The notes beneath the pieces were generated by a model, which did no database searches, was not told the origin of the DNA, and saw only the letters and a list, made by a program, of their open reading frames with translations. A stretch of DNA of 32,000 nt from Lysobacteraceae bacterium (GTDB lineage: Bacteria > Bdellovibrionota > UBA1018 > JAGTJX01), in NCBI GenBank assembly GCA_023657465.1, contig JAGTJX010000004.1, positions 18,053 to 50,052 of the forward strand. The letters run 5' to 3'. The translations under genes were made by a program, and so were the position numbers. Positions within the stretch are counted from its first letter, which is position 1, and every line of letters begins with the position of its first letter. Below are positions 13,015 to 27,356 of the stretch, one piece after another.

Positions 13015-13889
13015 GAATGATTCCATTTATAATTTTAATGCAGTTGTTTTCTCTTCAAGCAAGAGCGACACCAGAAATCGATACGCTTTGCCAGGAAATC
13101 GACTTAGAAGTGAATGCTTTGAAGTGGAAGCTCCCGAGCTGCAATAAACTTGCGGAATGGAAAAGTCTGGGACAATCCGTAAAAGGTCGACCCCTCATTT
13201 ATGCTGAATTCGGAAACCCTGAATCAAAAAATACAACACTGATATTCTCCATGGTTCACGGTGATGAAATCACACCATTATTTATTGGTTTGAAGCTTGC
13301 AGACTGGCTTAAGCAGCAGCCAGTGATGCTCAAGACCCATCGTATTATTGTAGCTCCTCTGGTTAACCCAGATTCCTTCTTCTCTACACCGAGAACACGA
13401 GTGAATGCTCGTGGAGTTGATGTGAATCGGAATCTAGGCACTCTGGATTGGAAGTCCAAAGCGCTCCAGGCTTGGAAAACACAGTTCAAATCAGACAAAC
13501 GTAGATTCCCAGGTAATGAGCCTGACTCTGAGCCTGAAACGATATTTCAAAAAGACTTAATCAAGCTCACCAATCCTTCAAAAATCATGTCCGTTCATTC
13601 ACCTCTCAATCACTTGGATTACGATGGACCAACGACACTCTCTTTGTGGCGTTTTCCAAAAGACTATGTGGAAGAATGCATTAGGCTCAGTCAAAAAGTA
13701 AAAGCAAAATCTACAGGTTATTTTATTGGATCATTAGGTAACTATGCTGGAACAGAAAGAGGTATACCTACTTTCACCATGGAGTTACCTACTGCGAATC
13801 CCAAGAAAGCTTGGGATTATTGGCTTATCTTTAAAGCTGGGATCTATACAGTGATTCAGCATGGAGTTCCTAGAGTTGTCACGCATTAG
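13011..13889 (+). CDS. Exported M14-family zinc carboxypeptidase, MpaA-like (murein peptide amidase)
   Basis: Signal peptide; HGDE, NARGVDVNRNLGTLDW, SVHSPLNHLDYDGP and GTERGIPTFTMELP motifs. Internal start at 13011 gives an ATGA overlap with the DedA gene. Confidence 0.82.
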   Translation: MRMIPFIILMQLFSLQARATPEIDTLCQEIDLEVNALKWKLPSCNKLAEWKSLGQSVKGRPLIYAEFGNPESKNTTLIFSMVHGDEITPLFIGLKLADWLKQQPVMLKTHRIIVAPLVNPDSFFSTPRTRVNARGVDVNRNLGTLDWKSKALQAWKTQFKSDKRRFPGNEPDSEPETIFQKDLIKLTNPSKIMSVHSPLNHLDYDGPTTLSLWRFPKDYVEECIRLSQKVKAKSTGYFIGSLGNYAGTERGIPTFTMELPTANPKKAWDYWLIFKAGIYTVIQHGVPRVVTH

Positions 13890-14227
13890 CGCATTGAAGG
13901 ATTGAGTCTAGCCCATGCTGCAGAAGCTGGGTTACGGATAGGTGCAATTCTGTACCAATCACCATCCGAGTCGATGATTTGGTAGTCTTCTTTTTTGGCT
14001 AATCTTCCCACAATCGGAAAATAATCTGCAGGTCCTGATCTGAGTTCAAGTGAAGCATTGTCAGTTGAAAGTTTTGCAGAAAGAGGATGGGCGCGAGTGA
14101 TCGTAATGACGGGCTTCTTCTGAAGTTCTGCTAGTTTCTGAGATCCAGATACTGTTAAACCCACTCCAACGATAATGGACATCACTGATGAAAAAATAAA
14201 GGCTTTACTGAGTAAGTTAATTTTCAT
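13886..14227 (-). CDS. Membrane-anchored or exported SH3b-domain protein
   Basis: N-terminal hydrophobic segment then ASLELRSGPADYFPIVGRLAKKEDYQIIDSDGDWYRI, a bacterial SH3-like pattern. Confidence 0.7.
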   Translation of the reverse strand: MKINLLSKAFIFSSVMSIIVGVGLTVSGSQKLAELQKKPVITITRAHPLSAKLSTDNASLELRSGPADYFPIVGRLAKKEDYQIIDSDGDWYRIAPIRNPASAAWARLNPSMR

Positions 14228-14243
14228 CGTTCCTCAGGTTTAA

Positions 14244-15053
14244 TTATCTTACAGTTTCAGGAACTGTTTCAACCGGAACGTTTTGCCTAGAAGGCTCTTT
14301 GAAACCACTAAAAGGTATGGCGTGGATATCAGGGTGGAGTACGCGGACTACGACTCGGCGATTTTTTCCCATCGCTTCTTCACTGAGTTCTCCAGAGGGA
14401 GTGCGATCAGTGAGTTTGGGACGAGTGTCTCCGTACCCTATGGCTAGCATGTGAACAGGTAAAAACTTATTATCAATGAATTGTCTGACGATGCGAGAAG
14501 CCCTTGCTCCGGAGAGCTCCCAGTTTGAAGGGTAGATGCCACCAATAATGGGACGTTGGTCCGTATGGCCTTCAATGACAACGTTGTAATTTAACTTTTT
14601 TCGCTCTTGAGATTTCTTGATGGCGTTAGTAAGTTTTCCTAATACAAGTTTGCCATTGTCGGTAACATCAGCACTTCCAGTAATGAAAAACACTGCTGAT
14701 TCAAAAGTCACACTGACTCCCGTTTCATCGCTTGTGACGATGGACTCTTTATCAAGTCCAGCTTCTTGAATCATGTTTGAAATTTCTTTTTGAATATCTG
14801 CTGAAGGATTTTGATACTCGCCTTTGAAGTGCTTTGAGATTTCTTCTCTGACTTTTTCGAATTTGCCTTTTTCGAGATTTGCGAGACTGAACATCATGAT
14901 GAAGAATCCACAAAGGAGTGTCATCATGTCAGCATAAGAAATCAGCCAGTTGCCTTCACCTTCTTCTACATGTGGAGCGCTTGTATGATGTTCATACCTT
15001 TTGTCCTCATGGATCTCTGTCTGTTTTTTCTTAAATAAACTACGAATCGCCAT
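14244..15053 (-). CDS. motB: MotB-like stator protein
   Basis: GNWLISYADMMTLLCGFFIMMFS TM segment with the conserved Asp and OmpA-like VIEGHTDQRP...NWELSGARA. Confidence 0.92.
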   Translation of the reverse strand: MAIRSLFKKKQTEIHEDKRYEHHTSAPHVEEGEGNWLISYADMMTLLCGFFIMMFSLANLEKGKFEKVREEISKHFKGEYQNPSADIQKEISNMIQEAGLDKESIVTSDETGVSVTFESAVFFITGSADVTDNGKLVLGKLTNAIKKSQERKKLNYNVVIEGHTDQRPIIGGIYPSNWELSGARASRIVRQFIDNKFLPVHMLAIGYGDTRPKLTDRTPSGELSEEAMGKNRRVVVRVLHPDIHAIPFSGFKEPSRQNVPVETVPETVR

Positions 15054-15057
15054 CGAA

Positions 15058-15843
15058 TTATGCCGCGGCTTTCTTCACAACGCGATCCTTTGGTAGAAGG
15101 AAAGAGTTTAAGCTCTCGCGCATTGCTATGGGGTTTGTGCTTTGTTTAAGAAGTAGAGCGCCTTCGATGATCATTCTTCGAAGCATGATTTCATCTTTGG
15201 TTCTCTCGGCGAGATTCTCTGCAATAGGAATGAAAACCATGTTGGCAAGTGTAATTCCGTAAAGAGTACCTACGAGACCAATTGACATCGCAGGTCCGAT
15301 CATTTTCTCAGCTCCGGGTTGACCTAGCTTTTGAAGAAGTGCAATCATCCCTAGAGTAGTAGCCAGAAGACCGAATGCTGGAGGAAACTTACCGATGACT
15401 CTAAACATGTTGGCTTCGTACATGTAGCGTGCTTCGATTGTTTTTAAGCGAGTCTCAAGCACTTGTCTAATCTCTTTTTCACTGAGTACTCCGTTTGAAA
15501 CGAGTGAAACAGCTTCTTTGAGGAATTCATGTTTGAGAGTAGGAACGACTTCGCTGATTGCAGATAAACCAGCTACAGCTTTTTTGTTGAGTTCTAAGAA
15601 CTGTTCAATGATGTGTTGATGGCTTGCGTGATTGATTCCTAAGACGCGAAGGAAGAAAACTTTTGTAAGAGCAAGAAGCTTAGTTACTGGGAAGCAGATA
15701 CTAGCAGCTGCTAAAGTTCCGCCGATAACGATTACGACTCCGTGGAAGTTTAAGAAGAACGCCATCTCCATTCCTGATTCATGAAGAGAGGCAACTACGA
15801 TCCCTAATCCCAATAGAACTCCAAAAAGTGAGGATAGATTCAA
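15058..15843 (-). CDS. motA: MotA-like stator protein
   Basis: Four hydrophobic segments; GVVIVIGGTLAAA, FRVIGKFPPAFGLLATTLGMIALL, GLVGTLYGITLANMVFIPIAENL. Confidence 0.93.
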   Translation of the reverse strand: MNLSSLFGVLLGLGIVVASLHESGMEMAFFLNFHGVVIVIGGTLAAASICFPVTKLLALTKVFFLRVLGINHASHQHIIEQFLELNKKAVAGLSAISEVVPTLKHEFLKEAVSLVSNGVLSEKEIRQVLETRLKTIEARYMYEANMFRVIGKFPPAFGLLATTLGMIALLQKLGQPGAEKMIGPAMSIGLVGTLYGITLANMVFIPIAENLAERTKDEIMLRRMIIEGALLLKQSTNPIAMRESLNSFLLPKDRVVKKAAA

Positions 15844-15845
15844 GA

Positions 15846-16355
15846 TTATGCAGCCTCCTTACGACGTGCAAGAGCTGTTTTCCACAGCTGGTATTGACTA
15901 ATGACGTATTTTTGATCTGTTTCTCTGAGACGAGCAATCATTGTGTCGATGCATGATTTGTAAAATCGCATTTTTCTAGAATCATCGCTCATGACATAGG
16001 CTTCAAACTTCTCTCTAGAAATCTGAAACACTTGGCAGTCCATGAGCGCTCTTACGGTTGCTGATCTTGGATTGTTATCGATGAGAGAGAGCTCACCAAA
16101 CACTGCGCCGGGCTGCAAGTGACCTAAGTCGTATTGATTGCTTCCCATCGGATTGGCCTTACTCACTCCGACTTGTCCATCAAGAAGTACGAACATACCA
16201 CCTTTGGTATCTCCTTCAATCATGATGTTGGTGTGAGCTTGTACGGCATAAGTTTCTCCAGTAGAAATTAACTCTTGGATCTCTTCATCAGTGAATCCAG
16301 AAAGGAGTTTCACTTCTTTGATCGTTTCTACAGTTGGAGCTTGTATCTCTGTCAT
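15846..16355 (-). CDS. Cyclic nucleotide-binding (CNB/CAP-sensor) domain protein without HTH
   Basis: HLQPGAVFGELSLIDNNPRSATVRALMDCQVFQISREKF phosphate-binding cassette. Confidence 0.88.
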   Translation of the reverse strand: MTEIQAPTVETIKEVKLLSGFTDEEIQELISTGETYAVQAHTNIMIEGDTKGGMFVLLDGQVGVSKANPMGSNQYDLGHLQPGAVFGELSLIDNNPRSATVRALMDCQVFQISREKFEAYVMSDDSRKMRFYKSCIDTMIARLRETDQKYVISQYQLWKTALARRKEAA

Positions 16356-18616
16356 CCAGCCGCCTTGTAGAGAGCTGTATTCTCTCCGAACATTCTCTCA
16401 TTGGTTTCAATGAGATTAATGTGTCCATCTGTTGCCATGACTTTAATTCGGTTGAGTGCTTTTCGCTCAACCGCCATGTAGGCTTCTCTGTTTGGTGCTG
16501 GGAAGTTTGCTAGCTCTTCTTGTAATTCTTCTACTAAGTTAGTGGGTGCTTTTGAGAATACAACTCCACGAATTTCGTCGCTTGTACCGCGCAAGAAGGT
16601 AAGGAGCTCTTCGTGTTTGAGAGAAAGTACAAGATCAAGTAATTGATTGTCTTGCAAGTACTTGAGAGTCTCAAGACTGACTAACTTACTCTTAATAGTA
16701 CGAACACTATCAGGATTCACTGATCCTAGTGAGTGAACGACAGACTTCTGAGTTTCAGAATTAGACTTCTCAAGAAGAGTCACTAGCACATCTGACCCTG
16801 GTAATGCCTCTGTATTGAGTCTTGGATTTTCCACACGTTTACGTTTCAACGCGCTTGAGACGTTGTGAATATAATCTCTTGGTAAGTGGTCGATCCGTGT
16901 GAGTTCGGTTAATAGCTTCATTTTCACATCTTCTTCAAGATGTTGATAGATAGCGTTTCGTCTTTGGTGATCGACTTGAGTGAGAACGACAGCCTTTACT
17001 GTGAGAGATTCATTTCTTACGAGTTCAACAACTTGGAGTGCGTCCATTTCGACTAAGAAGTCGAAAAGACTTGAAGCCCGTGAACCCATAACGACCATCT
17101 TAGCTGCGACGGTTCTGTTATGAAGGTGTCTTAAGAGTTCAAGAGCGTCATCGTCTGCAATCTCTGTAGGGTTCTTAGCGTAATACTCCATGAGTTCTTG
17201 TAGATCTCCTTGAAGAGAAGGGTCTTTCAGCATGTCGATGACTACGCTTTCACCAAACATATGAATGTATTGTGCTGTGATTTCCATTCCTTCTTCTGTC
17301 AGGATTCTACTAAATACGTGTTTAGCGACTTTTGGCTGTTCGGCAAAAATCGTTGATAGCTCTTCTTTAAGCCGCTCGATTTCGTATCGCTTTGCAATAA
17401 TTGCTCCCTTGTCAGACCCACTACCAGAGTCTCCACCTGACTTGTATGTTGAGGGTGCGCTTGTAGATACTGGATCAGAAGTAAGGGATTGAAATATTCT
17501 GGAGACTCCAGATTTAGATTCACTACGAGAACCTCTAGCGCCAGCTATTGCGATGAAGATAAGAAGTAAAAGAATGGCGCAGCTGAAAATGAGCCCATAG
17601 ACTTTGAACTTTTGTAGTTCAGATTGAACTGCATCGCCATTTTCTACTCGTTCAATCTTTTCAAAACGTTCAAAACGTTCTTGTCTAGCAGTGTTGTGAT
17701 GTTCGTTTGAATTCTTGAATTCAGTATTGCTTGTTTTCTTATCTTCTGTTGAAGCAAATTTTCTATCTGTGTTCTCAGAGTTATTATTGGTAGTGTCGTT
17801 TTTGCTACTTGAACTAGAAGAATTATATCCGTTTGGATCCATGAGTGAACCAATCGACACGCCAGAGCTGGTCTTAGGGAACTTCATTACCTTAGACTTC
17901 ACATCTGCGTACTTCAGAAAGTTTGTTTTGAGTTTTGCCATCTCAATGATGTTGCGTTGCTCTTCGCCTGCAAGTACATCATTCATGAGTAGGGTACTAG
18001 AAACACGGTTGACCTTAATTGCGAAATCGCCATCTTGGAAAAACTCACCTGGAGAAGCGTATTGAGCTTCTTCAGTGTTGACTGGTTCGGCATTGATCTC
18101 GAAGTCAGCCATAATACAATTCTCAGGACAGACTTGTCCAATTAGCTCGTTCACGGCTTCTTTATATTGTCTAGAAACTCTCTCCCGTAGTTCTGCAAAC
18201 TTGCGAGCCGATGTTGCAGGTTGTGGAAACTTAGCGCTGGTCGTATCGATTCCTACTAAGTAGTTGAGACCTTCTAAGTTCTTCTTCATGAGATTGATGA
18301 AGTTATCTCGGGTTCCATTACCCAACATCGTATCGACTAAAATTTTTACTTTTGCTGATGCTGGTTTAAGATCAATTTCGTTAGAAAGAGTACGATCAGA
18401 GAATCCTGGAAGGAATTCGTCTGGTGTGGCCACTTCAACTTCAGCGTCTACTCCTAATAGCTTACATTGGTCAGGACAATATTTTGTGAGGAGTGGATCG
18501 ATGATTGCTCGAATGTCCGATTCAGACTTGCGCTTCACTTCTTCTACTGCACTGACTCTTTTTGCGTGCGACTCATTAGCACTGAATAGTATCGCTACAA
18601 ATAAAATAAACCTCAT
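16352..18616 (-). CDS. Exported single-TM protein with FliF-like periplasmic part and FliG-like C-terminal region
   Basis: Signal peptide (MRFILFVAILFSANESHA); VNRVSSTLLMNDVLAGEEQRNIIEMAKLK...VMKFP; TM FKVYGLIFSCAILLLLIFIAIAG; C-terminal YLQDNQLLDLVLSLKHEELLTFLRGTSDEIRGVVFSKAPTNLVEELQEELANF resembling FliG. Confidence 0.72.
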   Translation of the reverse strand: MRFILFVAILFSANESHAKRVSAVEEVKRKSESDIRAIIDPLLTKYCPDQCKLLGVDAEVEVATPDEFLPGFSDRTLSNEIDLKPASAKVKILVDTMLGNGTRDNFINLMKKNLEGLNYLVGIDTTSAKFPQPATSARKFAELRERVSRQYKEAVNELIGQVCPENCIMADFEINAEPVNTEEAQYASPGEFFQDGDFAIKVNRVSSTLLMNDVLAGEEQRNIIEMAKLKTNFLKYADVKSKVMKFPKTSSGVSIGSLMDPNGYNSSSSSSKNDTTNNNSENTDRKFASTEDKKTSNTEFKNSNEHHNTARQERFERFEKIERVENGDAVQSELQKFKVYGLIFSCAILLLLIFIAIAGARGSRSESKSGVSRIFQSLTSDPVSTSAPSTYKSGGDSGSGSDKGAIIAKRYEIERLKEELSTIFAEQPKVAKHVFSRILTEEGMEITAQYIHMFGESVVIDMLKDPSLQGDLQELMEYYAKNPTEIADDDALELLRHLHNRTVAAKMVVMGSRASSLFDFLVEMDALQVVELVRNESLTVKAVVLTQVDHQRRNAIYQHLEEDVKMKLLTELTRIDHLPRDYIHNVSSALKRKRVENPRLNTEALPGSDVLVTLLEKSNSETQKSVVHSLGSVNPDSVRTIKSKLVSLETLKYLQDNQLLDLVLSLKHEELLTFLRGTSDEIRGVVFSKAPTNLVEELQEELANFPAPNREAYMAVERKALNRIKVMATDGHINLIETNERMFGENTALYKAAG

Positions 18617-19335
18617 GGCGATGCTAACTTCCGTGATTGAACATATTTTTGTCTGTCGACAAATTTCTTTAATCCTATATTACTTGGATTAAACTCAAGG
18701 GCTTGGCCCCATGCCTTGATTGCTAAGTCTTGATAGCCTAACTTCTGAAGCACAGTCCCTCGCATTTCATAAAGTTTAGGATTGGTAGGATATTGTCTGA
18801 TCATTGGATCTACTTCAAGAAGCGCTGCTTCGAATCTACCCATGTTGTAGAGCTGTTTTACTTTATCAATCTTAGCAAGATAGCTACCATCAGAATCTGG
18901 TGTTTCATCTTGAGTAGGAGCAAGACCTAAGCCATTTTCAATTTCACGTCTTTTCCATTCATCGTTTGGATTACCTTTTGGAAAAGTTTGTTCAATCTCT
19001 CTATCTGCGATGGTTGGCTTTCTCTCATCATAGGTATAGTCGTACTGAGTATTCGATGCGACATTTCTTCCGCTGCTATTCATTTCATTAAAATCAGGAT
19101 TCATTGGCATAATAACATCGGTGATGTCTTTATCGGATTCTGGGATTTCGACTTCAATTGATCGATCGCCTTTTTTAGTTCTGAAAATCATTGGAGATTT
19201 AGATGCTTTAGCTGCGTTGTAGAAATCACCAAACGGGTTTTCAATAGGCTGAGCGCTTTCTTCTTTAGTTGAGAAAGCAGAACATCCAATCATGGTTGTC
19301 ATGAGCAATATGCTAAATATATTTTTCAAACTCAT
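18613..19335 (-). CDS. Lipoprotein with C-terminal TPR region
   Basis: Lipobox-like MMTTMIGC; YNMGRFEAALLEVDPMIRQYPTNPKLYEMRGTVLQKLGYQDLAIKAWGQALEFNPSN. Confidence 0.78.
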   Translation of the reverse strand: MSLKNIFSILLMTTMIGCSAFSTKEESAQPIENPFGDFYNAAKASKSPMIFRTKKGDRSIEVEIPESDKDITDVIMPMNPDFNEMNSSGRNVASNTQYDYTYDERKPTIADREIEQTFPKGNPNDEWKRREIENGLGLAPTQDETPDSDGSYLAKIDKVKQLYNMGRFEAALLEVDPMIRQYPTNPKLYEMRGTVLQKLGYQDLAIKAWGQALEFNPSNIGLKKFVDRQKYVQSRKLASP

Positions 19336-19353
19336 TTAACCCTAGCCTCCGAT

Positions 19354-20517
19354 TCAAAACATTGCGCTTACGCCAAGACCGATTTCGATACCCGAAACAC
19401 TTCCTGCGCTTGTTCCACTCAGGAACGCTGTAGCAGGTGGTCTGTAGCCTAAGCTCACTGGAACTGCCCAGTGCTTACCAAAACGCCATTCATAGCCAAT
19501 GCGACCAATTGCACCTAAGAATCCAGATGCATAAGTGCCGCCAGCTGCGATAAAAAGACTGTTTCTAGCCTTGTTATAGCTTTCAATTTCTCCCCAGAGA
19601 TTCCACGCATGAACGAAAAGGAGTGTGAGGTTGAAGCCAGAGTAGAGATTGACTGTACCTGCAGTAGGAGTCACACCCATTAGCGTGTTAACGTCCATCA
19701 TGTAGTTCATTTCAAAACCGACTTCCTTCTTGCGATTGTCGTAACGTTCTACCATTCTAAATGCGAATCCAAGAACGCTTGAATAAGTTCCTACGTTTGC
19801 TTGATAGAAGTAATAGAGAGTTGGGCGATACATCACAGTAGGCGCGAATTCGATTTGATCCGTTTTAGGATTGATCTGATTGAAATCAACTCCACGACGG
19901 AATGCAGTGGCACGGGAAGTTTCAGAGTTATAACTCTTAGACCATGCAACAGTGCCTGTTTCGGCGTCTACTATATAGAAAGAAATGAGCATTCCAGAGG
20001 GTTGATAAGAAAATGCAATGTCCATGAAGTTTTCAATTCCAGACATTTTTGCAATTCTCGCTAATTGTACAGAGTTTCCATCAGTATTACTGATCACAAC
20101 ATTATCACCAAAAATATTTGCACTTTTTGCCTTACAAGGAAGACATTGAATCATTCTGGTTTTTGAGTTTCTGACAATTTTTTCACTGGTGACTAATTCT
20201 AAGTGCTGTCTGAATGACGGCGGTACGTTCTCACTGACTCCGATGTTTCGGATAGTGAGATTCTTCAGTCCTGAGACTTGTCCGTTTTTTACGTCGTACT
20301 CGAAGTCTGCAATCGTCTCTTCTAAGACTTGGTAGAAACTTCTAAATTTTTTGTCTTTATCTTTTTCCAAACCTAGCTTCGAACCAGTGGTTTCTGGAGC
20401 AGTGTCTTTTTGTAAACTCACGTTAGGCTCCGTCTCGTCAGATTTTGGTGCTACCTGTGCGTAGAGATATCCTGAAGTGATTAAGGCGATAAGCAAAATC
20501 AATAGATGCGAGCGCAC
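19354..20517 (-). CDS. Exported protein: N-terminal CsgG/FlgO-like domain (tentative) plus C-terminal beta-barrel-like region
   Basis: Signal peptide; IAFSYQPSGMLISFYIVDAETGTVAWSKSYNSETSRA; C-terminal half of alternating aromatic/hydrophobic strands ending ...SAMF (terminal Phe). Confidence 0.6.
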   Translation of the reverse strand: MRSHLLILLIALITSGYLYAQVAPKSDETEPNVSLQKDTAPETTGSKLGLEKDKDKKFRSFYQVLEETIADFEYDVKNGQVSGLKNLTIRNIGVSENVPPSFRQHLELVTSEKIVRNSKTRMIQCLPCKAKSANIFGDNVVISNTDGNSVQLARIAKMSGIENFMDIAFSYQPSGMLISFYIVDAETGTVAWSKSYNSETSRATAFRRGVDFNQINPKTDQIEFAPTVMYRPTLYYFYQANVGTYSSVLGFAFRMVERYDNRKKEVGFEMNYMMDVNTLMGVTPTAGTVNLYSGFNLTLLFVHAWNLWGEIESYNKARNSLFIAAGGTYASGFLGAIGRIGYEWRFGKHWAVPVSLGYRPPATAFLSGTSAGSVSGIEIGLGVSAMF

Positions 20518-20844
20518 AAAGATTGTGCTCCTTCCTCAGATATCTCTTCGGACACAGGAGCTTGTGCTTAAGGACAAAGTAATTAATCTTGGGATTTAGT
20601 TAGTATTAGGTTGAAAATCGACATTTTTTTGTCAGTTCAGTGTGATTTACGTTTCTATTAAAAGTTAGAAGGAACAAGCGATGATCTGTATTCCTTAATA
20701 GAAAACGGCCTCAAAAATTGGAACGTTATTTAATAGAGATAGAAGGAGCCTGAATTTCTAGGCTCATTTTGAGAGTAGTGACTATATTTTACTCAAATAC
20801 ACATAATGGCAAAATCTACATCCCGGAAATAAGTAAATTCTAAG

Positions 20845-21042
20845 GTGAATTGTTTGAAAGATACGATTGTTAAGATGTTTCGTTCTTCATTCAAAAAGGT
20901 CGATAAAAAGTATATGGGAGTTCATTTGGTCATTCGCAATTTTCTTTATTGGATAACAGGTAATTCAGATAAACGTTTTTATGATATCTTTAATACAAAC
21001 AAGATAAAATTCAAATCTATAGATTCTGAAGAAAGCTTATGA
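20845..21042 (+). CDS. Small hypothetical protein
   Basis: 65 aa ORF with ATGA overlap to the next ORF; no homology recognised. Confidence 0.35.
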   Translation: MNCLKDTIVKMFRSSFKKVDKKYMGVHLVIRNFLYWITGNSDKRFYDIFNTNKIKFKSIDSEESL

Positions 21043-21281
21043 TTTTTATAAGCCAACAAAAATTCACTACATTAACCAATGCAATGCTCCTTGTATTTTG
21101 TATTAGTTTTACTGGGATATTCGTACCCATAATTTCTTATTTCATGCAAAAAAAATGGTTTCCCTCAAAATACTCAAATTTGAATGCAGGTCTTCGAACA
21201 GAAGCAATACTAGTAGAATCCACAAGTAATAAGCGAGCAGTTGCAAGCCAGGTGAAACAACCTAAAAAAGTCCGGCGTTAA
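21039..21281 (+). CDS. Small membrane protein, possibly frameshifted near its 3' end
   Basis: One TM-like segment (AMLLVFCISFTGIFVPIISYFM). A coding-like continuation lies in the -1 frame to 21463. Confidence 0.4.
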   Translation: MIFISQQKFTTLTNAMLLVFCISFTGIFVPIISYFMQKKWFPSKYSNLNAGLRTEAILVESTSNKRAVASQVKQPKKVRR

Positions 21282-21467
21282 GTCGGCCGATAATCAATAA
21301 GAATATTGCTACATCTCCAGCTAAGGAAGATTCCAAAGCTGAAAACCTTGCCGAAGCAGAAGCTCAAATAGCAGAAATCAAAACCGATCCTGAGTTTGAG
21401 CAGCTGTTTGGAGGCAATAGTGATTGGTTTTACAGAAGCTTTAGTTTTTGGAAAAATACTTGATGCA

Positions 21468-21511
21468 TTATTTGCAATTAATATTTGTTGGGTTATTTGC
21501 AATTAATATTT
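21468..21511 (+). repeat. Tandem pair of a 19-bp direct repeat
   Basis: TTATTTGCAATTAATATTT at 21468-21486 and 21493-21511. Confidence 0.9.
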
Positions 21512-21559
21512 TTATCAAAATGAAATTCTGTAACTAGATTTTGTTCTTTTGATGCTACC

Positions 21560-21703
21560 TCAGCTAACCAACTCATCGTCTGGCACGCTTTGAAGAAGTG
21601 TCTCAATGGCATCCGCCTTTTCCTGGGTCACAAGAAAAAGCTTTCTCTTAGTTTCACTTTTAATCGCAACCTCAATAAGGCGCGTTTTCACGACTACCGA
21701 CAT
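21560..21703 (-). pseudogene. Truncated N-terminal part of an antitoxin-like protein
   Basis: Translated by hand: MSVVVKTRLIEVAIKSETKRKLFLVTQEKADAIETLLQSVPDDELVS*, resembling the N-terminus of HTH antitoxins, with no HTH before the stop. Confidence 0.45.
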
Positions 21704-21948
21704 AAGTTACCTCCACTATTTTAACTTCGTTATTCACTACTTCCCAAACAGCAACATAGCTATAATTCAAATGGCAGTGATGAGTTCCATCAGTAAGTTT
21801 TGGATAGTTAGGTCAATTCACAGCGAACTGGACCGTTTGCCATGATATTGGCGATCAGGATCTGAAGTAATTCCCGAACATTTTTGGGCAGTTTACTTGG
21901 ACCTTTTACAGCCTTTTTCTTGGTTTTAACTGTCCAGGTCAACTTTAT
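21672..21948 (-). pseudogene. Frameshifted RelE/HigB-like toxin remnant
   Basis: LTWTVKTKKKAVKGPSKLPKNVRELLQILIANIMANGPVR in one frame, then NYPKLTDGTHHCHLNYSYVAVWEVVNNEVKIVEVTYVGSRENAPY* in another. One frame change plus a TGA lie at the junction. Confidence 0.7.
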
Positions 21949-21961
21949 TTCTAGTAAAAAA

Positions 21962-22141
21962 CTAAGCTCTCTTTTTACCAGGAGGGGAAGCCAATATTTT
22001 TTTAGCTTCCTCTAAATCCACCAGCTGATCAGTAACGTAGCGATGAATCACTGAGCCCACTAAGGTTTGGTAGGGAAGTCCATGCTTGAGCGCTAGCTTC
22101 TGTAACTTGAGCAAGTCCTCTTCTGGCAAACGAATGTTCAT
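21962..22141 (-). CDS. CopG-like antitoxin (59 aa, below the ORF-track cutoff)
   Basis: Hand translation: MNIRLPEEDLLKLQKLALKHGLPYQTLVGSVIHRYVTDQLVDLEEAKKILASPPGKKRA*. The same frame reads ...SSKSERMNIRLPEED upstream. Confidence 0.65.
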   Translation of the reverse strand: MNIRLPEEDLLKLQKLALKHGLPYQTLVGSVIHRYVTDQLVDLEEAKKILASPPGKKRA

Positions 22142-22254
22142 ACGTTCAGATTTTGAGCTCTTAGAAGACCGAACTATTAGATTTGCTCGTTAAATCGAAG
22201 AGTTTTGATCCGAGCATTGCTTGGAAAACATTGGATGAATGAGAGCCGTACATA

Positions 22255-22323
22255 TTTCGCTAAAAGCGAAGGATAGGCCATTCTCATTTAGTGAAACTGA
22301 CTCTTATTTCGTTTTTAGCGAAA
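22255..22323. promoter_or_regulatory. Spaced inverted repeat upstream of the 22343 gene
   Basis: TTTCGCTAAAAgCGAA (22255-22270) and TTTCGTTTTTAGCGAAA (22307-22323). Confidence 0.5.
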
Positions 22324-22342
22324 CATAGTGAAAAGGAAGTGT

Positions 22343-23044
22343 ATGAATAGAAATTTTTTATTGGTTTTAATGAGCATCACAGCATCTGCCTTCGCTCAAG
22401 AGCCATTCAATGCTTTATCTAGTTATAATAACGAGACTCATCCCATTTTACTTACAATTGAATTGCAAGAGACTAAGTCTTGGAAAGAAACAAACTCAAC
22501 AACTATAGCAAATATTTATGCTGATGAATCTGAGGAAGAGGTGGCACATAAATTACTTTTTCATAAGAAACATAATTTAATTGAAAATAAACTTTCTAAG
22601 TATCCTGTTTATGAAAGTATTAAGTCCATAATGGTGAATGCTAGAGAAGAAATTTATAGAACAATGCCTCAATCAATCACGAGAAAGACAATTTCAGAAC
22701 ATGGAACTGAATACCCAGTAATTATTGCTGATTTCAACCTTTTAGAAAATAAAGTGAGACTTTATTTATCAAGCAGCTCTAACTACAACGTAGAATTTGA
22801 TAGAATGTTACAAATTAGAAGAGATCGAATGAATGTTCTTGCTGGAACTAACTTCAGAATGGCACCTCCCACTCCAGGCGTTCCTCCGATTGAAAAAATT
22901 AATTTAAACGAAACACTAACTACTGAAGATAAAACTAAAATCACTAAACAATTAATAGATGCTATTCATTCTGCTTTTTCAATTACTATCAATACTTTTG
23001 AGTTTAATGAAAAATTGAGAACTACCATTGATTTGTTTAGTTAA
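22343..23044 (+). CDS. Small exported hypothetical protein
   Basis: MNRNFLLVLMSITASAFAQ signal peptide; RBS-like aaaaggaagt upstream of 22343. Confidence 0.65.
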   Translation: MNRNFLLVLMSITASAFAQEPFNALSSYNNETHPILLTIELQETKSWKETNSTTIANIYADESEEEVAHKLLFHKKHNLIENKLSKYPVYESIKSIMVNAREEIYRTMPQSITRKTISEHGTEYPVIIADFNLLENKVRLYLSSSSNYNVEFDRMLQIRRDRMNVLAGTNFRMAPPTPGVPPIEKINLNETLTTEDKTKITKQLIDAIHSAFSITINTFEFNEKLRTTIDLFS

Positions 23045-23266
23045 AAAATACTTAACCCTGATCACTAGCTCGCTTGATGCGTACTAAAGTAAAAGATTAA
23101 AATCACAAAAACGGGCCAAACAGAGCAGAGTGAGCGGGAAACAACGAAGTTGTTTCGTGCGATGCTCCAAATCTTGAGAGCTCCAGGTTTAAGCTGTACC
23201 CCTTCTAACCAAGAAGCACTGCAGCTACAGAACCCCTTCTGAAATAGCATTGACAGATGAACATTA

Positions 23267-23295
23267 GATTGTTACACAGCGATTAGATTTTAAAT
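23267..23295 (+). repeat. 29-bp promoter-like direct repeat, copy 1
   Basis: GATTGTTACACAGCGATTAGATTTTAAAT, exact match to 23642-23670. Confidence 0.9.
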
Positions 23296-23325
23296 ATTAA
23301 ACAGATAACTGAAGGGGAAAACTCA

Positions 23326-23616
23326 ATGAAAAATATATTTTTTGGAATGCTCGCTCTCGCTAGTTCAACTCAAGCGTTCGCCGCTTGGCCTGAAACACAG
23401 TTGTTTTGTAAAAACGGAAAACTCTACGGAATCATCTATAACAATGATCCATTTATTGTTACGGAGTTTACCAATCAGAAAGAGTGTTCAAACAGCTTCG
23501 TGAATAGAAAATATTGCAAGGAAGCCAACATGCACGTCGTCTATGTCAAAGATGATCAAGCAGTAGAACACTATGCTACTCAAGACGAATGTCGCGAGGC
23601 TATTGGTAAAAATTAA
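23326..23616 (+). CDS. Small exported cysteine-containing protein
   Basis: MKNIFFGMLALASSTQAFA signal peptide, RBS aagggg; 96 aa with 5 Cys in the mature part. Confidence 0.7.
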   Translation: MKNIFFGMLALASSTQAFAAWPETQLFCKNGKLYGIIYNNDPFIVTEFTNQKECSNSFVNRKYCKEANMHVVYVKDDQAVEHYATQDECREAIGKN

Positions 23617-23641
23617 CCTATAGAGATATAAAAGAACGTAG

Positions 23642-23670
23642 GATTGTTACACAGCGATTAGATTTTAAAT
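23642..23670 (+). repeat. 29-bp promoter-like direct repeat, copy 2
   Basis: Exact copy of 23267-23295, again just upstream of an exported small protein gene. Confidence 0.9.
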
Positions 23671-23693
23671 TATTGGTTTTAGGAGTACTGAAT

Positions 23694-24098
23694 ATGAAAA
23701 ATATCCTGTCGATAATTTTATTTTTATCAAGCCTGAGTGCTTTTGCCTATGAGTACCCTGCTGCAAAAAGAGATCGTCCAATTATCGAAAAAGCCTTGAA
23801 TATGTACGACATTTCATTTGATGAACTCAAGTTCCCTTTAAAACGTCAGATTTTTACAGGAACCATGACTGCTTTAACTAAAATTCCAGAACTTGTTTCA
23901 TTTTTGACTGGTCTAGGCGATCAGCATTTCGTCACTCTCCATGTTATTGAAGGAAAGTTTAATCATGAGCAAAAGACATGCATCGCATATGTGCAGTTGA
24001 ACTTTGATAATACTCAAGAAGTTGAAATTGCAAATTGTGGCACTCATTACACTGACTTTTTCAGTTCCAAAAGATTAGTTCCACTCACTAGACCCTGA
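23694..24098 (+). CDS. Small exported hypothetical protein
   Basis: MKNILSIILFLSSLSAFA signal peptide; start at internal Met preceded by ttaggag. Confidence 0.65.
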   Translation: MKNILSIILFLSSLSAFAYEYPAAKRDRPIIEKALNMYDISFDELKFPLKRQIFTGTMTALTKIPELVSFLTGLGDQHFVTLHVIEGKFNHEQKTCIAYVQLNFDNTQEVEIANCGTHYTDFFSSKRLVPLTRP

Positions 24099-24100
24099 TT

Positions 24101-24187
24101 ACATGAGCGCTGTTTGCTCATTAATTTAAAGAACTTAACGTGCACCCGAAGGCCTAATTGACATTCGGGCGTTTCCATTTCTATGAA
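24101..24187 (+). repeat. Dispersed 3' module copy 1 (tandem hairpins, terminator-like)
   Basis: TGAGCGctgtttGCTCA then CCCGAAggcctaattgacaTTCGGGCGTTTCCATTTCTATGAAA; shared with 27357, 28799 and 29297. Confidence 0.75.
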
Positions 24188-24191
24188 ATAA

Positions 24192-24644: not shown

Positions 24645-24704
24645 GAAATTCGACTAAATTTGCGGAACCTTCCTATAGCATGGGTCTCTATTTCAAGTGT
24701 CCTC

Positions 24705-25007: not shown

Positions 25008-25010
25008 TCC

Positions 25011-25300: not shown

Positions 25301-25442
25301 CCAAACATCCTAAAGTAGCATAATGTTGTCATATTTGACAACATCTATTTCTAGTTGGCTTTACGTGGTTTACCGGAAATAACTTCGTCACTTCAACTAG
25401 CCCGCTTAATGGATAGAATGTCCATTTAATCCGGTAAATAGC

Positions 25443-25772: not shown

Positions 25773-25783
25773 AAGTTCACTCC

Positions 25784-26413: not shown

Positions 26414-26453
26414 ATTGACTATATTAGCTAAAAAAGCTAATATAGTCAATATG
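26411..26453. promoter_or_regulatory. Perfect 19-bp inverted repeat forming a symmetric divergent promoter/operator at the fic start codon
   Basis: CATATTGACTATATTAGCT-AAAAA-AGCTAATATAGTCAATATG; each strand reads TTGACT-17 bp-TAATAT-AGTCAAT-ATG. Confidence 0.85.
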
Positions 26454-27355: not shown

Positions 27356-27356
27356 T

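What the first reader, a model, noticed from the sequence alone, without database searches (positions are those of the whole stretch)
13886..20517. Seven-gene putative trans-envelope motor: MotAB plus an exported FliF/FliG-like rotor protein, CNB sensor, TPR lipoprotein and outer-membrane-like barrel
Seen in sequence: seven co-directional minus-strand genes with almost no intergenic space. There are ATGA overlaps at 18613-18616 and 16352-16355, and gaps of 2 and 4 bp around MotA. Products span every compartment: predicted outer-membrane barrel with a CsgG/FlgO-like periplasmic domain (tentative), TPR lipoprotein, single-TM protein with a FliF-like periplasmic part and FliG-like cytoplasmic C-terminus, soluble cyclic-nucleotide-binding protein, MotA, MotB and an SH3b protein. 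Known: MotA/MotB are proton or sodium stators, and FliG is the torque-receiving partner in the flagellar C-ring. Inference: a non-flagellar stator-driven machine with its own rotor/adaptor, possibly gated by cyclic nucleotide. It could serve gliding, prey-envelope traversal or envelope work. No flagellin, hook, rod or export genes are present in the window.
Basis: partly seen in the sequence, partly recalled or inferred. Interest (0 to 1): 0.88.

Follow-up and report, generated by a model that had tools for sequence, protein, structure and literature searches.

The report
Flagellar stator with fused FliF–FliG partner
A conserved seven-gene operon in uncultured relatives of Bdellovibrio encodes a flagellar-type MotAB ion motor next to a natural fusion of the two flagellar rotor proteins (FliF and FliG) and outer-envelope partners; it looks like an undescribed second rotor or adaptor for the flagellar motor, and it is switched on with late flagellar genes.

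Summary
Seven minus-strand genes (13886-20517), two ATGA overlaps and every domain call were confirmed.

- **754-aa protein:** it has FliF topology. Two periplasmic ring-building-motif domains (fold-level match to the FliF MS ring) are followed by a disordered linker, one TM helix and a complete cytoplasmic FliG. The FliM-binding EHPQR motif is lost.
- **MotA/MotB:** these are flagellar-type, with plug, Asp, prolines and a charged loop conserved.
- **387-aa protein:** a TolB-N/LpoB-like domain plus an 8-stranded outer-membrane barrel.
- **Synteny:** six genes keep the same order in 48/48 complete loci (64 species, apparently GTDB class UBA1018). The SH3b gene is a shortened form of a conserved seventh gene. 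A rearranged five-gene core (barrel, TPR, MotA, MotB, FliF-FliG) recurs in Oligoflexia.

The "non-flagellar" reading is not supported. The operon carries a sigma-28-type promoter matching flagellin promoters of the same lineage. Flagellin genes lie within 7 kb in about half of the relatives.

Best reading (0.45): a MotAB-driven FliF-FliG rotor or adaptor that links to outer-membrane partners, is gated by a cNMP-binding protein and is co-expressed with the flagellum. Whether it stands alone or sits at the flagellar base is open. I found no description of it in the searchable literature.

The parts
20544..20571 (-). Sigma-28 (FliA)-type promoter: TTAAG (20571-20567), 15-nt spacer, CCGAAGAG (20551-20544)
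   Evidence: Sequence read. The motif T[TCA]AAG-N14-16-CCGA[ATG][AGT] lies within 75 nt of the first gene in 28 of 45 orthologous loci, against a background of 0.009 per 100 nt. The same motif lies upstream of flagellin genes.
20528..20537 (-). Shine-Dalgarno GAGGAAGGAG, 10 nt before the GTG start at 20517
   Evidence: The GAGGAAGGAGC string recurs upstream of the first gene in many orthologous loci (listing).
19354..20517 (-). Gene 1: 387-aa exported outer-membrane protein. Signal peptide; periplasmic alpha/beta domain (aa ~58-200, nt 19918-20346) with invariant CxxC (C125, C128); C-terminal 8-stranded beta-barrel (aa 228-387, nt 19357-19836) ending in Phe.
   Evidence: No Pfam or NCBIfam hit. 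AF2 pLDDT 79. Foldseek: TolB 4e-7, LpoB 8e-5, PelC 5.7e-3, FlgT 5.7e-3 for the N-domain; OmpW 1.9e-5, OmpX 3.5e-5, OmpA and NspA for the barrel. 363 homologues, all unnamed. Conserved residues.
18613..19335 (-). Gene 2: 240-aa lipoprotein (Cys18, Ser at +2) with C-terminal TPR repeats
   Evidence: TPR_2, TPR_11 and TPR_14 hits. The lipobox Cys column is invariant in 50 orthologues. ATGA overlap with gene 3.
16352..18616 (-). Gene 3 ('FliGx'): 754-aa natural FliF-FliG fusion. Signal peptide or TM1 (aa 1-19). Two periplasmic RBM-type domains, each with an invariant CxxxC (aa 20-245, nt 17882-18559). Disordered S/N-rich linker (aa 250-325, nt 17642-17869). Juxtamembrane helix plus TM (aa 326-362, nt 17531-17641). 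Cytoplasmic FliG N-M-C-like region (aa 401-753, nt 16358-17416).
   Evidence: Pfam FliG_M and FliG_C. PDB profile search: FliG 3hjl E 3e-10. AF2 secondary structure. Foldseek: FliG E 3-5e-6 with about 320 aligned columns to full-length FliG; FliF MS ring 7bk0_B at 1.1e-4 and 6scn_A at 1.9e-4. Invariant residues; motif analysis.
15846..16355 (-). Gene 4: 169-aa stand-alone cyclic-nucleotide-binding protein. Phosphate-binding cassette FGE...RSAT conserved, invariant C-terminal QLWKT motif, no DNA-binding domain.
   Evidence: PF00027 E 2.2e-20. Conservation in 61 orthologues. ATGA overlap with gene 3.
15058..15843 (-). Gene 5: MotA, 261 aa, flagellar-type (PomA/MotP/MotA-like)
   Evidence: NCBIfam MotP 5e-43, PomA 6e-41, MotA 2e-40. 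Best PDB matches are flagellar stators, aligned from residue 1. Equivalents of E. coli P173 and P222 are invariant. Loop [KR]87-[KR]88...G92...[ED]98 is conserved in 55-56 of 56.
14244..15053 (-). Gene 6: MotB, 269 aa, with plug, TM Asp42 and an OmpA-like peptidoglycan-binding domain
   Evidence: MotB_plug 1.6e-15 and OmpA 1.7e-13. MotD/MotS/MotB models. Asp equivalent to E. coli D32 is invariant, 56 of 56.
13886..14227 (-). Gene 7: 113-aa membrane-anchored SH3b protein. It is a shortened form of a conserved 270-440-aa protein (cytoplasmic Zn-ribbon, P/A-rich linker, TM, periplasmic SH3b).
   Evidence: SH3_3 1.3e-6. A homologous gene lies directly after MotB in 43 of 50 loci. Zn_ribbon_4 and SH3_3 hits in relatives.

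Best explanation
The seven genes form one operon, transcribed from a sigma-28-type promoter together with late flagellar genes.

**What it encodes**
- A flagellar-type, peptidoglycan-anchored MotA5B2-like ion motor.
- A dedicated partner, FliGx. This is a FliF-topology membrane protein whose cytoplasmic half is a complete FliG that can no longer bind FliM.
- Outer-envelope partners and a cNMP-binding protein.

**Proposed mechanism**
1. Ion flow through MotAB turns the MotA pentamer.
2. The conserved charged MotA loop pushes on the FliG_C-like domain of FliGx.
3. FliGx oligomerises through its two periplasmic ring-building-motif domains.
4. These domains are joined to the membrane helix by an ~80-residue flexible linker. 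They contact the outer-membrane TPR lipoprotein and the TolB-N-like domain of the 8-stranded barrel protein.
5. Stator work in the inner membrane is thereby transmitted to an outer-membrane-associated assembly.
6. The SH3b protein (with a Zn-ribbon in most relatives) anchors or positions the complex on the wall.
7. The small cNMP-binding protein gates the MotA-FliGx contact, in the way YcgR/MotI do for c-di-GMP.

The complex has no export gate, rod, hook or FliM/FliN. It is therefore not a second flagellum but an export-less rotor or adaptor that works alongside the flagellum.

**Shown:** gene order, domains, folds, conserved catalytic and interface residues, synteny, promoter motif.

**Inferred:** every physical contact, ring formation, rotation, the output, and the location in the cell.
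For: - **Operon structure and conservation.** Operon structure. Six genes lie in identical order in 48 of 48 complete loci. The seventh gene is present in 43 of 50. The core of barrel, TPR, MotA, MotB and FliGx is retained, in a different order, in Oligoflexia. Linkage kept across a rearrangement argues for physical or functional coupling.
- **Stator competence.** Plug, Asp, both prolines and the PG-binding domain are conserved. The charged loop is conserved. The closest solved relatives are all flagellar stators.
- **FliGx cytoplasmic half.** FliG_M and FliG_C score above Pfam thresholds. Profile hit to FliG E 3e-10. Foldseek aligns about 320 columns to full-length FliG. The torque-helix region keeps a conserved charged pattern, P691-[KR]-[DE]-L-V-x-[ED]-L-E-[ED]-E-L.
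- **FliGx periplasmic half and topology.** Two alpha-beta-beta-alpha-beta domains and Foldseek hits to FliF rings. The topology (signal peptide, invariant CxxxC pairs in the N-half, one TM, basic residues after it) puts FliG in the cytoplasm.
- **Not part of the switch complex.** EHPQR becomes N-E-S-L-T.
- **Outer-membrane partners.** for the barrel protein; for the lipoprotein.
- **cNMP protein.** The phosphate-binding cassette is conserved.
- **Co-expression with the flagellum.** Promoter motif.
Against: - No interaction was tested; AlphaFold-Multimer was not available.
- The FliF-likeness is fold-level only. There is no Pfam YscJ_FliF hit, and hhalign against E. coli FliF gives probability 0.2%.
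- In the HMMER alignment the residue matching E. coli FliG R281 is acidic in FliGx, with the basic residue one position earlier. The electrostatic match to MotA is therefore not established.
- The window's own copy has lost three consensus charges (T692, N693, Q699).
- An 80-residue disordered linker is a poor torque shaft.
- No obvious output component (adhesin, filament, channel) is encoded.
- The sigma-28 promoter and nearby flagellins fit equally well with these MotAB being the ordinary flagellar stators.
- I could not determine whether the genomes hold other motAB sets or canonical fliF/fliG.
- One locus (L015) has FliGx followed directly by the seventh gene, with no cNMP-MotA-MotB.
Confidence: 0.45

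Rival explanations
1. Integral accessory of the canonical flagellar motor. These MotAB are the ordinary flagellar stators of the lineage. The other five proteins are lineage-specific motor parts: a stator scaffold analogous to Vibrio MotX/MotY/FlgT/FlgO/FlgP or Campylobacter PflA/PflB/FlgP/FlgQ. FliGx would form an extra ring or docking platform around the basal body. That ring would hold or engage the outward-facing side of the MotA pentamers, as a static support or an outer 'ring gear'.
For: - Sigma-28-type promoter identical in form to the flagellin promoters.
- Flagellin genes lie within 7 kb upstream in 18 of 34 loci with a full flank.
- MotA/MotB are indistinguishable from flagellar stators. 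MotA is the most conserved gene of the set, with median identity 65%.
- Component types (TPR protein, OM-associated protein with a weak FlgT-like fold at E 5.7e-3, PG-binding protein) resemble known stator scaffolds (PMC13023049).
- Described members of the host lineages have a flagellum: thick and polar in FG cells of class UBA1018 (PMC13200544); flagellar genes and soft-agar motility in cultured Silvanigrellaceae (PMC7386786).
Against: - No known flagellar scaffold contains a FliG torque domain or FliF-type RBMs.
- There is no sequence match of any of the five proteins to curated flagellar accessory families.
- FliGx has its own membrane anchor and has lost the FliM-binding motif, so it cannot be a C-ring subunit.
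- The location at the motor is untested.
Confidence: 0.35
2. Stator decoy or brake. FliGx is a membrane-tethered FliG mimic that sequesters MotAB units away from the flagellar rotor. The cNMP-binding protein decides when, so swimming speed is tuned by cyclic nucleotide.
For: - FliG_C-like domain without FliM binding.
- Stand-alone cNMP-binding protein encoded between FliGx and MotA.
- Co-regulation with the flagellum.
- Precedent of second-messenger brakes acting on MotA/FliG: YcgR (PMC10140304).
Against: - It does not explain the conserved outer-membrane barrel, TPR lipoprotein, SH3b protein or the two periplasmic RBM domains.
- The Oligoflexia version keeps the core but has no cNMP-binding gene.
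Confidence: 0.1
3. FliGx is the lineage's only MS-ring and FliG, so the operon simply encodes core flagellar rotor and stator genes in fused form.
For: - It unites FliF-like and FliG-like parts.
- JGI annotates relatives as FliG.
- An engineered FliF-FliG fusion has been solved structurally (PDB 8z4d, listed), so covalent linkage of the two proteins is tolerated.
Against: - EHPQR is lost.
- Only two RBMs are predicted, with no recognisable RBM3 or beta-collar, and no sequence-level FliF signal.
- The operon uses a late (sigma-28) promoter, whereas the MS ring is the first structure built.
- A Silvanigrellales genome is reported to hold all structural flagellar genes (PMC12321486).
Confidence: 0.03
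4. A non-flagellar 5:2-motor system of a known kind: Zorya-type phage defence, or a Tol/Ton/Agl-Glt-type envelope or gliding system.
For: - MotB gives generic ZorB hits.
- The layout (IM motor, Zn-ribbon/TM protein, TPR protein, OM barrel) recalls Agl-Glt. This comparison is from my own knowledge.
Against: - No ZorA match, and MotA has no long tail.
- MotA is of the flagellar (FIT) type with a plug-bearing MotB, not TolQ/ExbB/AglR-like (classification in PMC12505986).
- No ZorC/ZorD-like genes and no TonB/TolA-like protein.
Confidence: 0.03

Closest known systems
Flagellar rotor-stator core (FliF MS ring, FliG, MotA5B2/PomAB)
   Same: - MotA/MotB have the plug, the essential Asp, both prolines, the charged cytoplasmic loop and the OmpA-like domain.
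- FliGx carries FliG N-M-C-like domains in the cytoplasm and FliF-like RBM domains in the periplasm, with FliF topology.
- Transcription is of the sigma-28 type, as for motAB and fliC in model organisms.
   Different: - FliF and FliG are one polypeptide.
- Only two RBMs, with no detectable RBM3 or beta-collar, and an 80-residue disordered linker.
- The FliM-binding EHPQR motif is lost.
- No export apparatus, rod, hook, FliM or FliN genes in the operon.
- The operon has its own outer-membrane and wall-binding partners and a cNMP-binding protein.
Chlamydiaceae FliF-FliG fusion (Bergeron 2016, PMC4768692)
   Same: A natural fusion of a shortened FliF (two RBM-like domains and TM helices) to a FliG-like cytoplasmic domain. 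It is suggested there to be a non-canonical or ancestral complex.
   Different: - The chlamydial protein is about 330 aa and carries only a FliG_M-like region.
- Its organism is not thought to be flagellated, and the paper lists only a few flagellar genes there (FliF, FliL, FlhA), with no stator genes among them.
- The protein here is 750-970 aa with complete FliG N-M-C, and it is always encoded with MotAB.
- No direct sequence comparison was made here.
Second-messenger brakes and clutches on the stator-rotor interface (YcgR, MotI/DgrA, EpsE)
   Same: A small cytoplasmic nucleotide-sensing protein encoded with, and presumably acting on, MotA/FliG-type partners.
   Different: - The sensor is a cNMP-binding (CRP-type) domain, not PilZ.
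- Its ligand and target are untested.
- It is absent from the Oligoflexia version.
Periplasmic stator scaffolds of high-torque motors (Vibrio MotX/MotY/FlgT/FlgO/FlgP; Campylobacter PflA/PflB/FlgP/FlgQ; E-ring FlgY/MotE with TPR partners, PMC13023049)
   Same: A TPR protein, an OM-associated protein with a TolB-N/FlgT-like fold and a PG-binding protein are encoded with the stator, in lineages whose described members have a polar flagellum.
   Different: - No sequence-level membership in any of those families.
- None of them contains FliG torque domains in the cytoplasm or FliF-type RBMs.
Trans-envelope systems powered by 5:2 motors (Ton, Tol-Pal, Agl-Glt gliding, GldLM/T9SS)
   Same: The design: an inner-membrane ion motor, a bitopic protein with a long flexible periplasmic linker, TPR and lipoprotein components, and an outer-membrane barrel.
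   Different: - The motor here is of the flagellar (FIT) clade.
- Coupling would go through a cytoplasmic FliG domain rather than through a TM helix inside the motor.

Membership tests
Flagellar-type MotA/MotB stator (FIT clade, PMC12505986) | MotA_ExbB channel domain, full-length similarity to flagellar MotA/PomA/MotP, conserved TM3/TM4 prolines | tested here: met
   PF01618 E 3.5e-19. MotP/PomA/MotA models E 1e-40 to 1e-43. PDB flagellar stators E 1e-33 to 1e-10 over residues 1-255. Equivalents of E. coli P173 and P222 present in 56 of 56.
Flagellar-type MotA/MotB stator (FIT clade, PMC12505986) | Charged residues in the MotA cytoplasmic loop (E. coli R90/E98; PomA R88, K89, E96, E97) | tested here: met
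   [KR]87-[KR]88 in 56 of 56, G92 in 55 of 56, [ED]98 in 55 of 56. The register against E. coli and PomA was inferred from the HMMER alignment and is offset by 1-2 residues.
Flagellar-type MotA/MotB stator (FIT clade, PMC12505986) | MotB with plug, essential TM Asp and OmpA-like PG-binding domain | tested here: met
   MotB_plug 1.6e-15 and OmpA 1.7e-13. Asp42, equivalent to E. coli D32, in 56 of 56.
Flagellar-type MotA/MotB stator (FIT clade, PMC12505986) | Drives rotation of the flagellum | not testable with these tools
   Only indirect evidence: sigma-28-type promoter and flagellin neighbours.
FliG (flagellar rotor/switch protein) | FliG_M and FliG_C domains | tested here: met
   PF14841 31.1 bits (cut-off 25). 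PF01706 50.6 bits (cut-off 23.3). Profile against PDB FliG E 3e-10. Foldseek E 3e-6.
FliG (flagellar rotor/switch protein) | FliG_N domain that binds the FliF C-terminus | tested here: inconclusive
   The Pfam FliG_N hit is below threshold and misplaced. Helices 401-510 precede FliG_M, and Foldseek aligns about 320 columns to full-length FliG 3hjl and 9n49_G. Here the segment is covalently joined to the TM helix.
FliG (flagellar rotor/switch protein) | EHPQR motif of FliG_M that binds FliM | tested here: not met
   It aligns to N-E-S-[LIM]-T. Only the Glu is kept (E536, 56 of 56).
FliG (flagellar rotor/switch protein) | Charged torque helix (E. coli K264, R281, D288, D289, R297) | tested here: inconclusive
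   The family consensus is P691-[KR]692-[DE]693-L-V-x-[ED]697-L-E699-[ED]700-E701-L...R710-[ED]711. The acidic pair matching D288/D289 is kept. The residue aligned to R281 is acidic, with the basic residue one position earlier. The window copy reads T692, N693, Q699.
FliG (flagellar rotor/switch protein) | Soluble ~330-aa cytoplasmic protein | tested here: not met
   754 aa, with a signal peptide, a periplasmic half and a TM helix.
FliF / SctJ (YscJ_FliF family, MS-ring protein) | Sequence membership (Pfam YscJ_FliF, YscJ_FliF_C) | tested here: not met
   No Pfam or NCBIfam hit in residues 1-400. Profile against PDB finds nothing. hhalign against E. coli FliF gives probability 0.2%.
FliF / SctJ (YscJ_FliF family, MS-ring protein) | Periplasmic ring-building motifs (alpha-beta-beta-alpha-beta) between membrane segments | tested here: met
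   Two such domains at pLDDT 80-92. Foldseek to FliF rings: 7bk0_B E 1.1e-4 and 6scn_A E 1.9e-4, probability 1.0. Weaker hits to PrgH, YscD and MxiG.
FliF / SctJ (YscJ_FliF family, MS-ring protein) | RBM3 with beta-collar housing rod and export gate; ring formation | not testable with these tools
   Only two domains are predicted. No multimer prediction was available.
Chlamydiaceae FliF-FliG fusion | Short FliF (two RBMs) fused to a FliG_M-like domain; few other flagellar genes and no stator genes listed for the organism | not tested
   Architecture compared from PMC4768692 only; no chlamydial sequence was aligned. Here FliG is complete and MotAB is always adjacent.
Zorya anti-phage system | ZorA (MotA-like with long cytoplasmic tail) plus ZorB plus ZorC/D or ZorE | tested here: not met
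   PADLOC gives only generic ZorB hits for MotB. There is no hit for MotA or the other proteins.
cNMP-binding domain proteins (CRP/FNR-type sensor domain) | PF00027 domain with phosphate-binding cassette (FGE...R[ST]A) | tested here: met
   E 2.2e-20. FGE and RSAT are conserved in 61 orthologues. No HTH or other output domain (169 aa). The ligand was not tested.
Sigma-28 (FliA) late flagellar regulon | TAAA(G)-N15-(G)CCGATAA-type promoter | tested here: met
   Window: TTAAG-N15-CCGAAGAG. Found in 28 of 45 orthologous upstream regions against about 0.009 per 100 nt background. The same motif is upstream of flagellins. Actual FliA dependence is not testable here.

The most novel reading that the evidence does not exclude
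The flagellar stator has a second, previously unseen client. This would be a ring of natural FliF-FliG fusion proteins that MotAB turns, possibly as an outer 'ring gear' around the flagellar base. Flexible tethers would transmit that motion to an outer-membrane barrel and lipoprotein assembly. If so, it would be the first output of a flagellar-type stator that is not the axial rod. It could bear on how the outer membrane or sheath is handled at the base of thick polar flagella, or it could drive movement of an outer-membrane component.
Probability: 0.3. Interest if true: 0.92.

Novelty: new variant of a known kind. Interest (0 to 1): 0.78.

Why it matters
Flagellar-type (FIT) MotAB stators are so far known to do only one thing: turn FliG on the C-ring of a complete flagellum (PMC12505986).

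Here a FIT-type stator is genetically locked, across two deep lineages and through a gene-order rearrangement, to a second FliG-bearing protein. That protein cannot be a C-ring subunit and comes with its own envelope partners.

- **If it is a separate or concentric rotor:** it shows that the FliF/FliG/MotAB rotary core can exist without the type III export apparatus. That bears directly on models of how the flagellum evolved, in particular whether the rotor-stator module is separable from the secretion module.
- **If it is a flagellar accessory:** it would be a new class of motor elaboration.

Either way it is testable. The Oligoflexia version occurs in MAGs of the order Silvanigrellales, an order that has cultured, motile members.

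Tried and rejected
- **Sequence-level link of the periplasmic half to FliF/SctJ.** Pfam and NCBIfam gave nothing. A profile against PDB found nothing. hhalign against E. coli FliF was not significant.
- **Zorya or other defence systems.** Rejected.
- **Riboswitch or other RNA in the window.** None found.
- **Other promoter types.** No sigma-54 or strong sigma-70 promoters upstream of the operon in relatives. The generic promoter/terminator scan of the window was no better than shuffles.
- **Canonical fliF/fliG or a second motAB in the flanks of 64 loci.** None within ±7 kb.
- **Alignment caveat.** A MAFFT alignment of MotA with E. coli MotA mis-registered the cytoplasmic loop (one search gave H72/E80). 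It was replaced by the HMMER alignment to solved stators and family column counts.
- **Literature.** Seven full-text searches found no description of this operon. The closest items are the chlamydial FliF-FliG fusion and the FIT/GIT stator survey.
- **FliGx as the lineage's only MS ring or FliG.** Considered and judged unlikely (see rivals).

Full report
**1. Observation**

The seven minus-strand ORFs exist exactly where stated. The two ATGA start/stop overlaps (18613-18616 and 16352-16355) were read in the sequence. MotA is separated from its neighbours by 2 and 4 nt. Composition is even across the cluster at about 41-43% GC. It drops to 35-37% just upstream, from 20.5 kb onward.

Pfam and NCBIfam confirm five of the seven calls:
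- SH3_3 in the 113-aa protein.
- MotB_plug plus OmpA in the 269-aa protein.
- MotA_ExbB in the 261-aa protein, with best curated models MotP, PomA and MotA (E 1e-40 to 1e-43).
- cNMP_binding in the 169-aa protein.
- FliG_M and FliG_C, both above Pfam thresholds, at residues 528-735 of the 754-aa protein.
- TPR repeats in the 240-aa protein.

The 387-aa protein matches no family.

**2. The 754-aa protein ('FliGx')**

*Family and conservation.* More than 200 full-length homologues of about 50% identity exist. All come from Bdellovibrionota-type MAGs and are named 'hypothetical' or 'FliG C-terminal domain-containing'. In an alignment of 42 of them, the invariant residues include two CxxxC pairs in the N-terminal half.

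*Predicted structure.* AlphaFold2 on that alignment gives mean pLDDT 71.5, with domains at 80-92. The predicted layout is:
- an N-terminal signal-like helix;
- two alpha-beta-beta-alpha-beta domains (residues ~15-128 and 134-245), the topology of ring-building motifs;
- a disordered S/N-rich stretch (250-325);
- a long helix running into a TM segment (326-360), followed by basic residues;
- an all-helical region (401-753).

*Fold and profile matches.* Foldseek against PDB returns FliG structures at E 3-5e-6, with about 320 aligned columns to full-length FliG. It also returns the FliF MS ring (7bk0_B at 1.1e-4, 6scn_A at 1.9e-4, probability 1.0), with weaker PrgH, YscD and MxiG hits. A family profile hits FliG in PDB at E 3e-10.

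*Limits of the FliF call.* The FliF-likeness is structural only. There is no Pfam hit. A profile of the periplasmic half finds nothing in PDB. hhalign against E. coli FliF is not significant.

*Topology.* The signal peptide, the periplasm-typical Cys pairs and the single TM helix place the FliG part in the cytoplasm. This matters because periplasmic FliG/MgtE-like ARM domains do exist, in E-ring proteins (PMC13023049).

*FliG motifs.*
- The FliM-binding EHPQR motif is replaced by N-E-S-L-T, with only the Glu kept.
- The torque-helix region keeps a conserved charged pattern, P-[KR]-[DE]-L-V-x-[ED]-L-E-[ED]-E-L...R-[ED]. The acidic pair that aligns with E. coli D288/D289 is retained.
- The position aligned to R281 is acidic, with a basic residue one step earlier.
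- The window's own copy deviates from the consensus (T692, N693, Q699).

Overall the protein is a natural FliF-FliG fusion. It cannot be a switch-complex subunit, but it still presents a FliG_C-type surface.

**3. The stator**

- MotA aligns from its first residue with solved flagellar stators: C. sporogenes, B. subtilis and Vibrio PomA.
- Across 56 orthologues, the equivalents of E. coli P173 and P222 and of MotB D32 are invariant.
- The cytoplasmic loop reads [KR][KR]-x3-G-x5-[ED], with 55-56 of 56 conservation. This is the counterpart of PomA R88/K89/E96/E97.
- The plug and the OmpA-like domain are present.
- By the criteria of the recent stator survey (PMC12505986) this is a flagellar-type (FIT) stator, not a Tol/Exb/Agl-type one.
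- PADLOC shows no ZorA-like protein.

**4. Envelope partners**

- **387-aa protein.** AF2 gives pLDDT 79. The N-terminal alpha/beta domain matches TolB-N, LpoB, GNA1162, PelC and, weakly, FlgT. The C-terminal domain is an 8-stranded barrel matching OmpW, OmpX, OmpA and NspA, and it ends in Phe.
- **240-aa protein.** It has an invariant lipobox Cys with Ser/Ala/Gly at +2, and a conserved TPR end.
- **113-aa SH3b protein.** At first sight it seemed not to be conserved. In fact a homologous gene follows MotB in 43 of 50 loci. In those relatives it encodes an N-terminal Zn-ribbon, a P/A-rich linker, a TM helix and a C-terminal SH3b domain. The window copy retains only the TM helix and SH3b.

**5. 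Conservation**

*Main lineage.* A scan of species-representative genomes found 64 loci.
- In all 48 loci that are complete, the six genes barrel-TPR-FliGx-cNMP-MotA-MotB lie in the same order and strand.
- Fifteen more loci are cut by contig ends but are consistent.
- One locus (L015) has FliGx followed directly by the seventh gene, with no cNMP-MotA-MotB. This is either a deletion or an assembly artefact.
- Median identity to the window ranges from 44% (TPR) to 65% (MotA).

Several of these MAGs (FG-2, JAMPXJ01, CAIRTR01, UBA1018) belong to GTDB class UBA1018. This class is uncultured; its observed cells are vibrioid with one thick polar flagellum (PMC13200544).

*Wider reach.* An exhaustive profile search of 1.8 billion representatives found 104 proteins at E<=1e-30. 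They include a second tier of 720-990-aa proteins at about 27-30% identity. The named members of that tier come from Silvanigrellales and Oligoflexaceae. Four tier-2 loci show the order [213 aa]-barrel-TPR-MotA-MotB-FliGx, with homology to the window proteins confirmed. They lack the cNMP and Zn-ribbon/SH3b genes.

Retention of the five-gene core through a rearrangement and across classes is strong evidence for a functional unit.

**6. Link to the flagellum**

- **Promoter.** Upstream of the first gene the window has TTAAG-N15-CCGAAGAG, followed by a strong Shine-Dalgarno sequence. The motif T[TCA]AAG-N14-16-CCGA[ATG][AGT] occurs within 75 nt of the first gene in 28 of 45 orthologous loci, against 0.009 per 100 nt overall. 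Its form and spacing match the sigma-28 consensus, TAAA-N15-GCCGATAA (from my own knowledge).
- **Flagellin promoters.** The two flagellin genes of locus L001 carry TAAAG-N15-CCGAAACG and TCAAG-N15-CCGATACG. The motif is found upstream of flagellins in 15 of 36 cases scanned. One Oligoflexia locus has TAAA-N15-CCGATAGA before its barrel gene.
- **Neighbourhood.** Flagellin genes lie within 7 kb upstream of the operon in 18 of 34 loci with a full flank.
- **The window itself.** Here that neighbourhood is replaced by a low-GC island with toxin-antitoxin genes.
- **Host motility.** Cultured Silvanigrellaceae are motile and carry flagellar genes (PMC7386786, PMC12321486).

**7. Interpretation**

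*Shown:*
- a sigma-28-type operon;
- a competent flagellar-type stator;
- a FliF-topology protein with a full FliG that cannot bind FliM;
- outer-membrane and wall-binding partners;
- a cNMP-binding protein with an intact phosphate-binding cassette;
- tight, ancient linkage of the core.

*Inferred:*
- MotA engages the FliG_C-like domain.
- FliGx oligomerises through its RBMs.
- Its periplasmic domains reach the TPR lipoprotein and the barrel protein through the 80-residue linker.
- The cNMP protein gates the contact.

I rate this MotAB-driven rotor or adaptor model at 0.45. Its main rival (0.35) is that these are simply the flagellar stators plus a lineage-specific scaffold, with FliGx as an extra ring at the motor. 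The promoter, the neighbourhood and the stator type do not discriminate between the two. A genome census for other motAB sets and canonical fliF/fliG would, but it could not be run here. A decoy or brake role (0.1) does not explain the envelope proteins. FliGx as the only MS ring (0.03) conflicts with the lost EHPQR motif, the missing RBM3 and the late promoter.

**8. Comparison and novelty**

The nearest described architecture is the chlamydial FliF-FliG fusion (PMC4768692). It is much shorter, has only a FliG_M-like region, and the few flagellar genes that paper lists for Chlamydia do not include a stator. Functional analogies are:
- second-messenger brakes such as YcgR, for the cNMP protein;
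- the stator scaffolds of Vibrio and Campylobacter;
- trans-envelope 5:2-motor systems (Ton, Tol, Agl-Glt, GldLM).

Seven full-text searches found no description of this operon. I file it as a new variant of a known kind: flagellar rotor-stator parts in a new, export-less, envelope-linked arrangement. There is a real chance (about 0.3) that it is a new kind of output for the flagellar stator.

Noticed in passing
window 20518-30500: Low-GC (35-39%) stretch directly upstream of the operon. It holds toxin-antitoxin-type genes: Fic/DOC 25784-26449, a Phd-like gene 25443-25916, an HI1420-type antidote gene 30058-30405 and HVO_A0114 27440-27841. It also holds many small ORFs. It looks like an inserted island. 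In relatives this position holds a conserved lipoprotein gene and, further out, flagellin genes.
   Followed up: partly
L001 7048-7959 (minus strand), and 43 other loci: A 303-aa lipoprotein with no Pfam family is encoded divergently, immediately upstream of the barrel gene, in 44 loci (counting L001 and L003, which overlap on one contig). It shares the intergenic region that carries the sigma-28-type motif. It is absent from the window. It may be an eighth component.
   Followed up: partly
L001 16351-17868 (minus strand), and 39 other loci: A 505-aa protein that looks multi-pass membrane by eye (topology not tested) and has no Pfam hit. It is conserved downstream of the operon on the opposite strand in 40 loci and is absent from the window.
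   Followed up: no
window 13886-14227: The window's seventh gene has lost the N-terminal Zn-ribbon and linker found in 43 relatives. Only the TM helix and SH3b remain. Its stop overlaps the convergent M14 peptidase gene by 4 nt.
   Followed up: yes
window 16352-18616 (residues 692, 693, 699): The window's FliGx departs from the family consensus at three conserved charged positions of the torque-helix region: T692, N693 and Q699, instead of [KR], [DE] and E. No compensating change was seen in its MotA loop.
   Followed up: partly
window 15058-15843 (MotA residue T162): The residue seven positions after the TM3 proline is Thr in 56 of 56 orthologues. It corresponds to E. coli A180 and, from my memory of the literature, to PomA T158, a sodium-site residue. 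The best curated models include the sodium-type MotP, PomA and MotS. The stator may be sodium-coupled.
   Followed up: no
L015 2628-4200: In one metagenome contig FliGx is followed directly by the Zn-ribbon/SH3b gene. cNMP, MotA and MotB are missing. The contig contains 10 Ns. It may be a real deletion or a mis-assembly.
   Followed up: partly
proteins P0367, P0371, P0376, P0384, P0387 (representative library): Other proteins of 600-680 aa carry FliG_(N)M and FliG_C at the C-terminus behind an unrelated ~350-residue N-terminal part. One cluster has 20 members, on contigs up to 1.77 Mb. Membrane-anchored or extended FliG proteins may be more widespread than this family. Their taxa and gene context are unknown.
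   Followed up: partly
window 19354-20517 (C125, C128) and 16352-18616 (C47/C51, C163/C167): All three periplasmic domains carry invariant paired cysteines: CxxC in the barrel protein's N-domain and CxxxC in each RBM of FliGx. The pattern is kept in the Oligoflexia versions too. This suggests disulfides or a shared metal site.
   Followed up: no
P0001 (identical to the window's 754-aa protein): NCBI labels the source MAG 'Xanthomonadaceae bacterium' (KA715_12850, 429-kb contig). All relatives are Bdellovibrionota, so the label is probably a binning or taxonomy error.
   Followed up: no
L068 5479-6120, L069 5693-6334: In the Oligoflexia version a conserved 213-aa cytoplasmic protein with no Pfam family precedes the barrel gene. 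A PilZ-domain gene lies about 3 kb upstream on the other strand in two loci.
   Followed up: no
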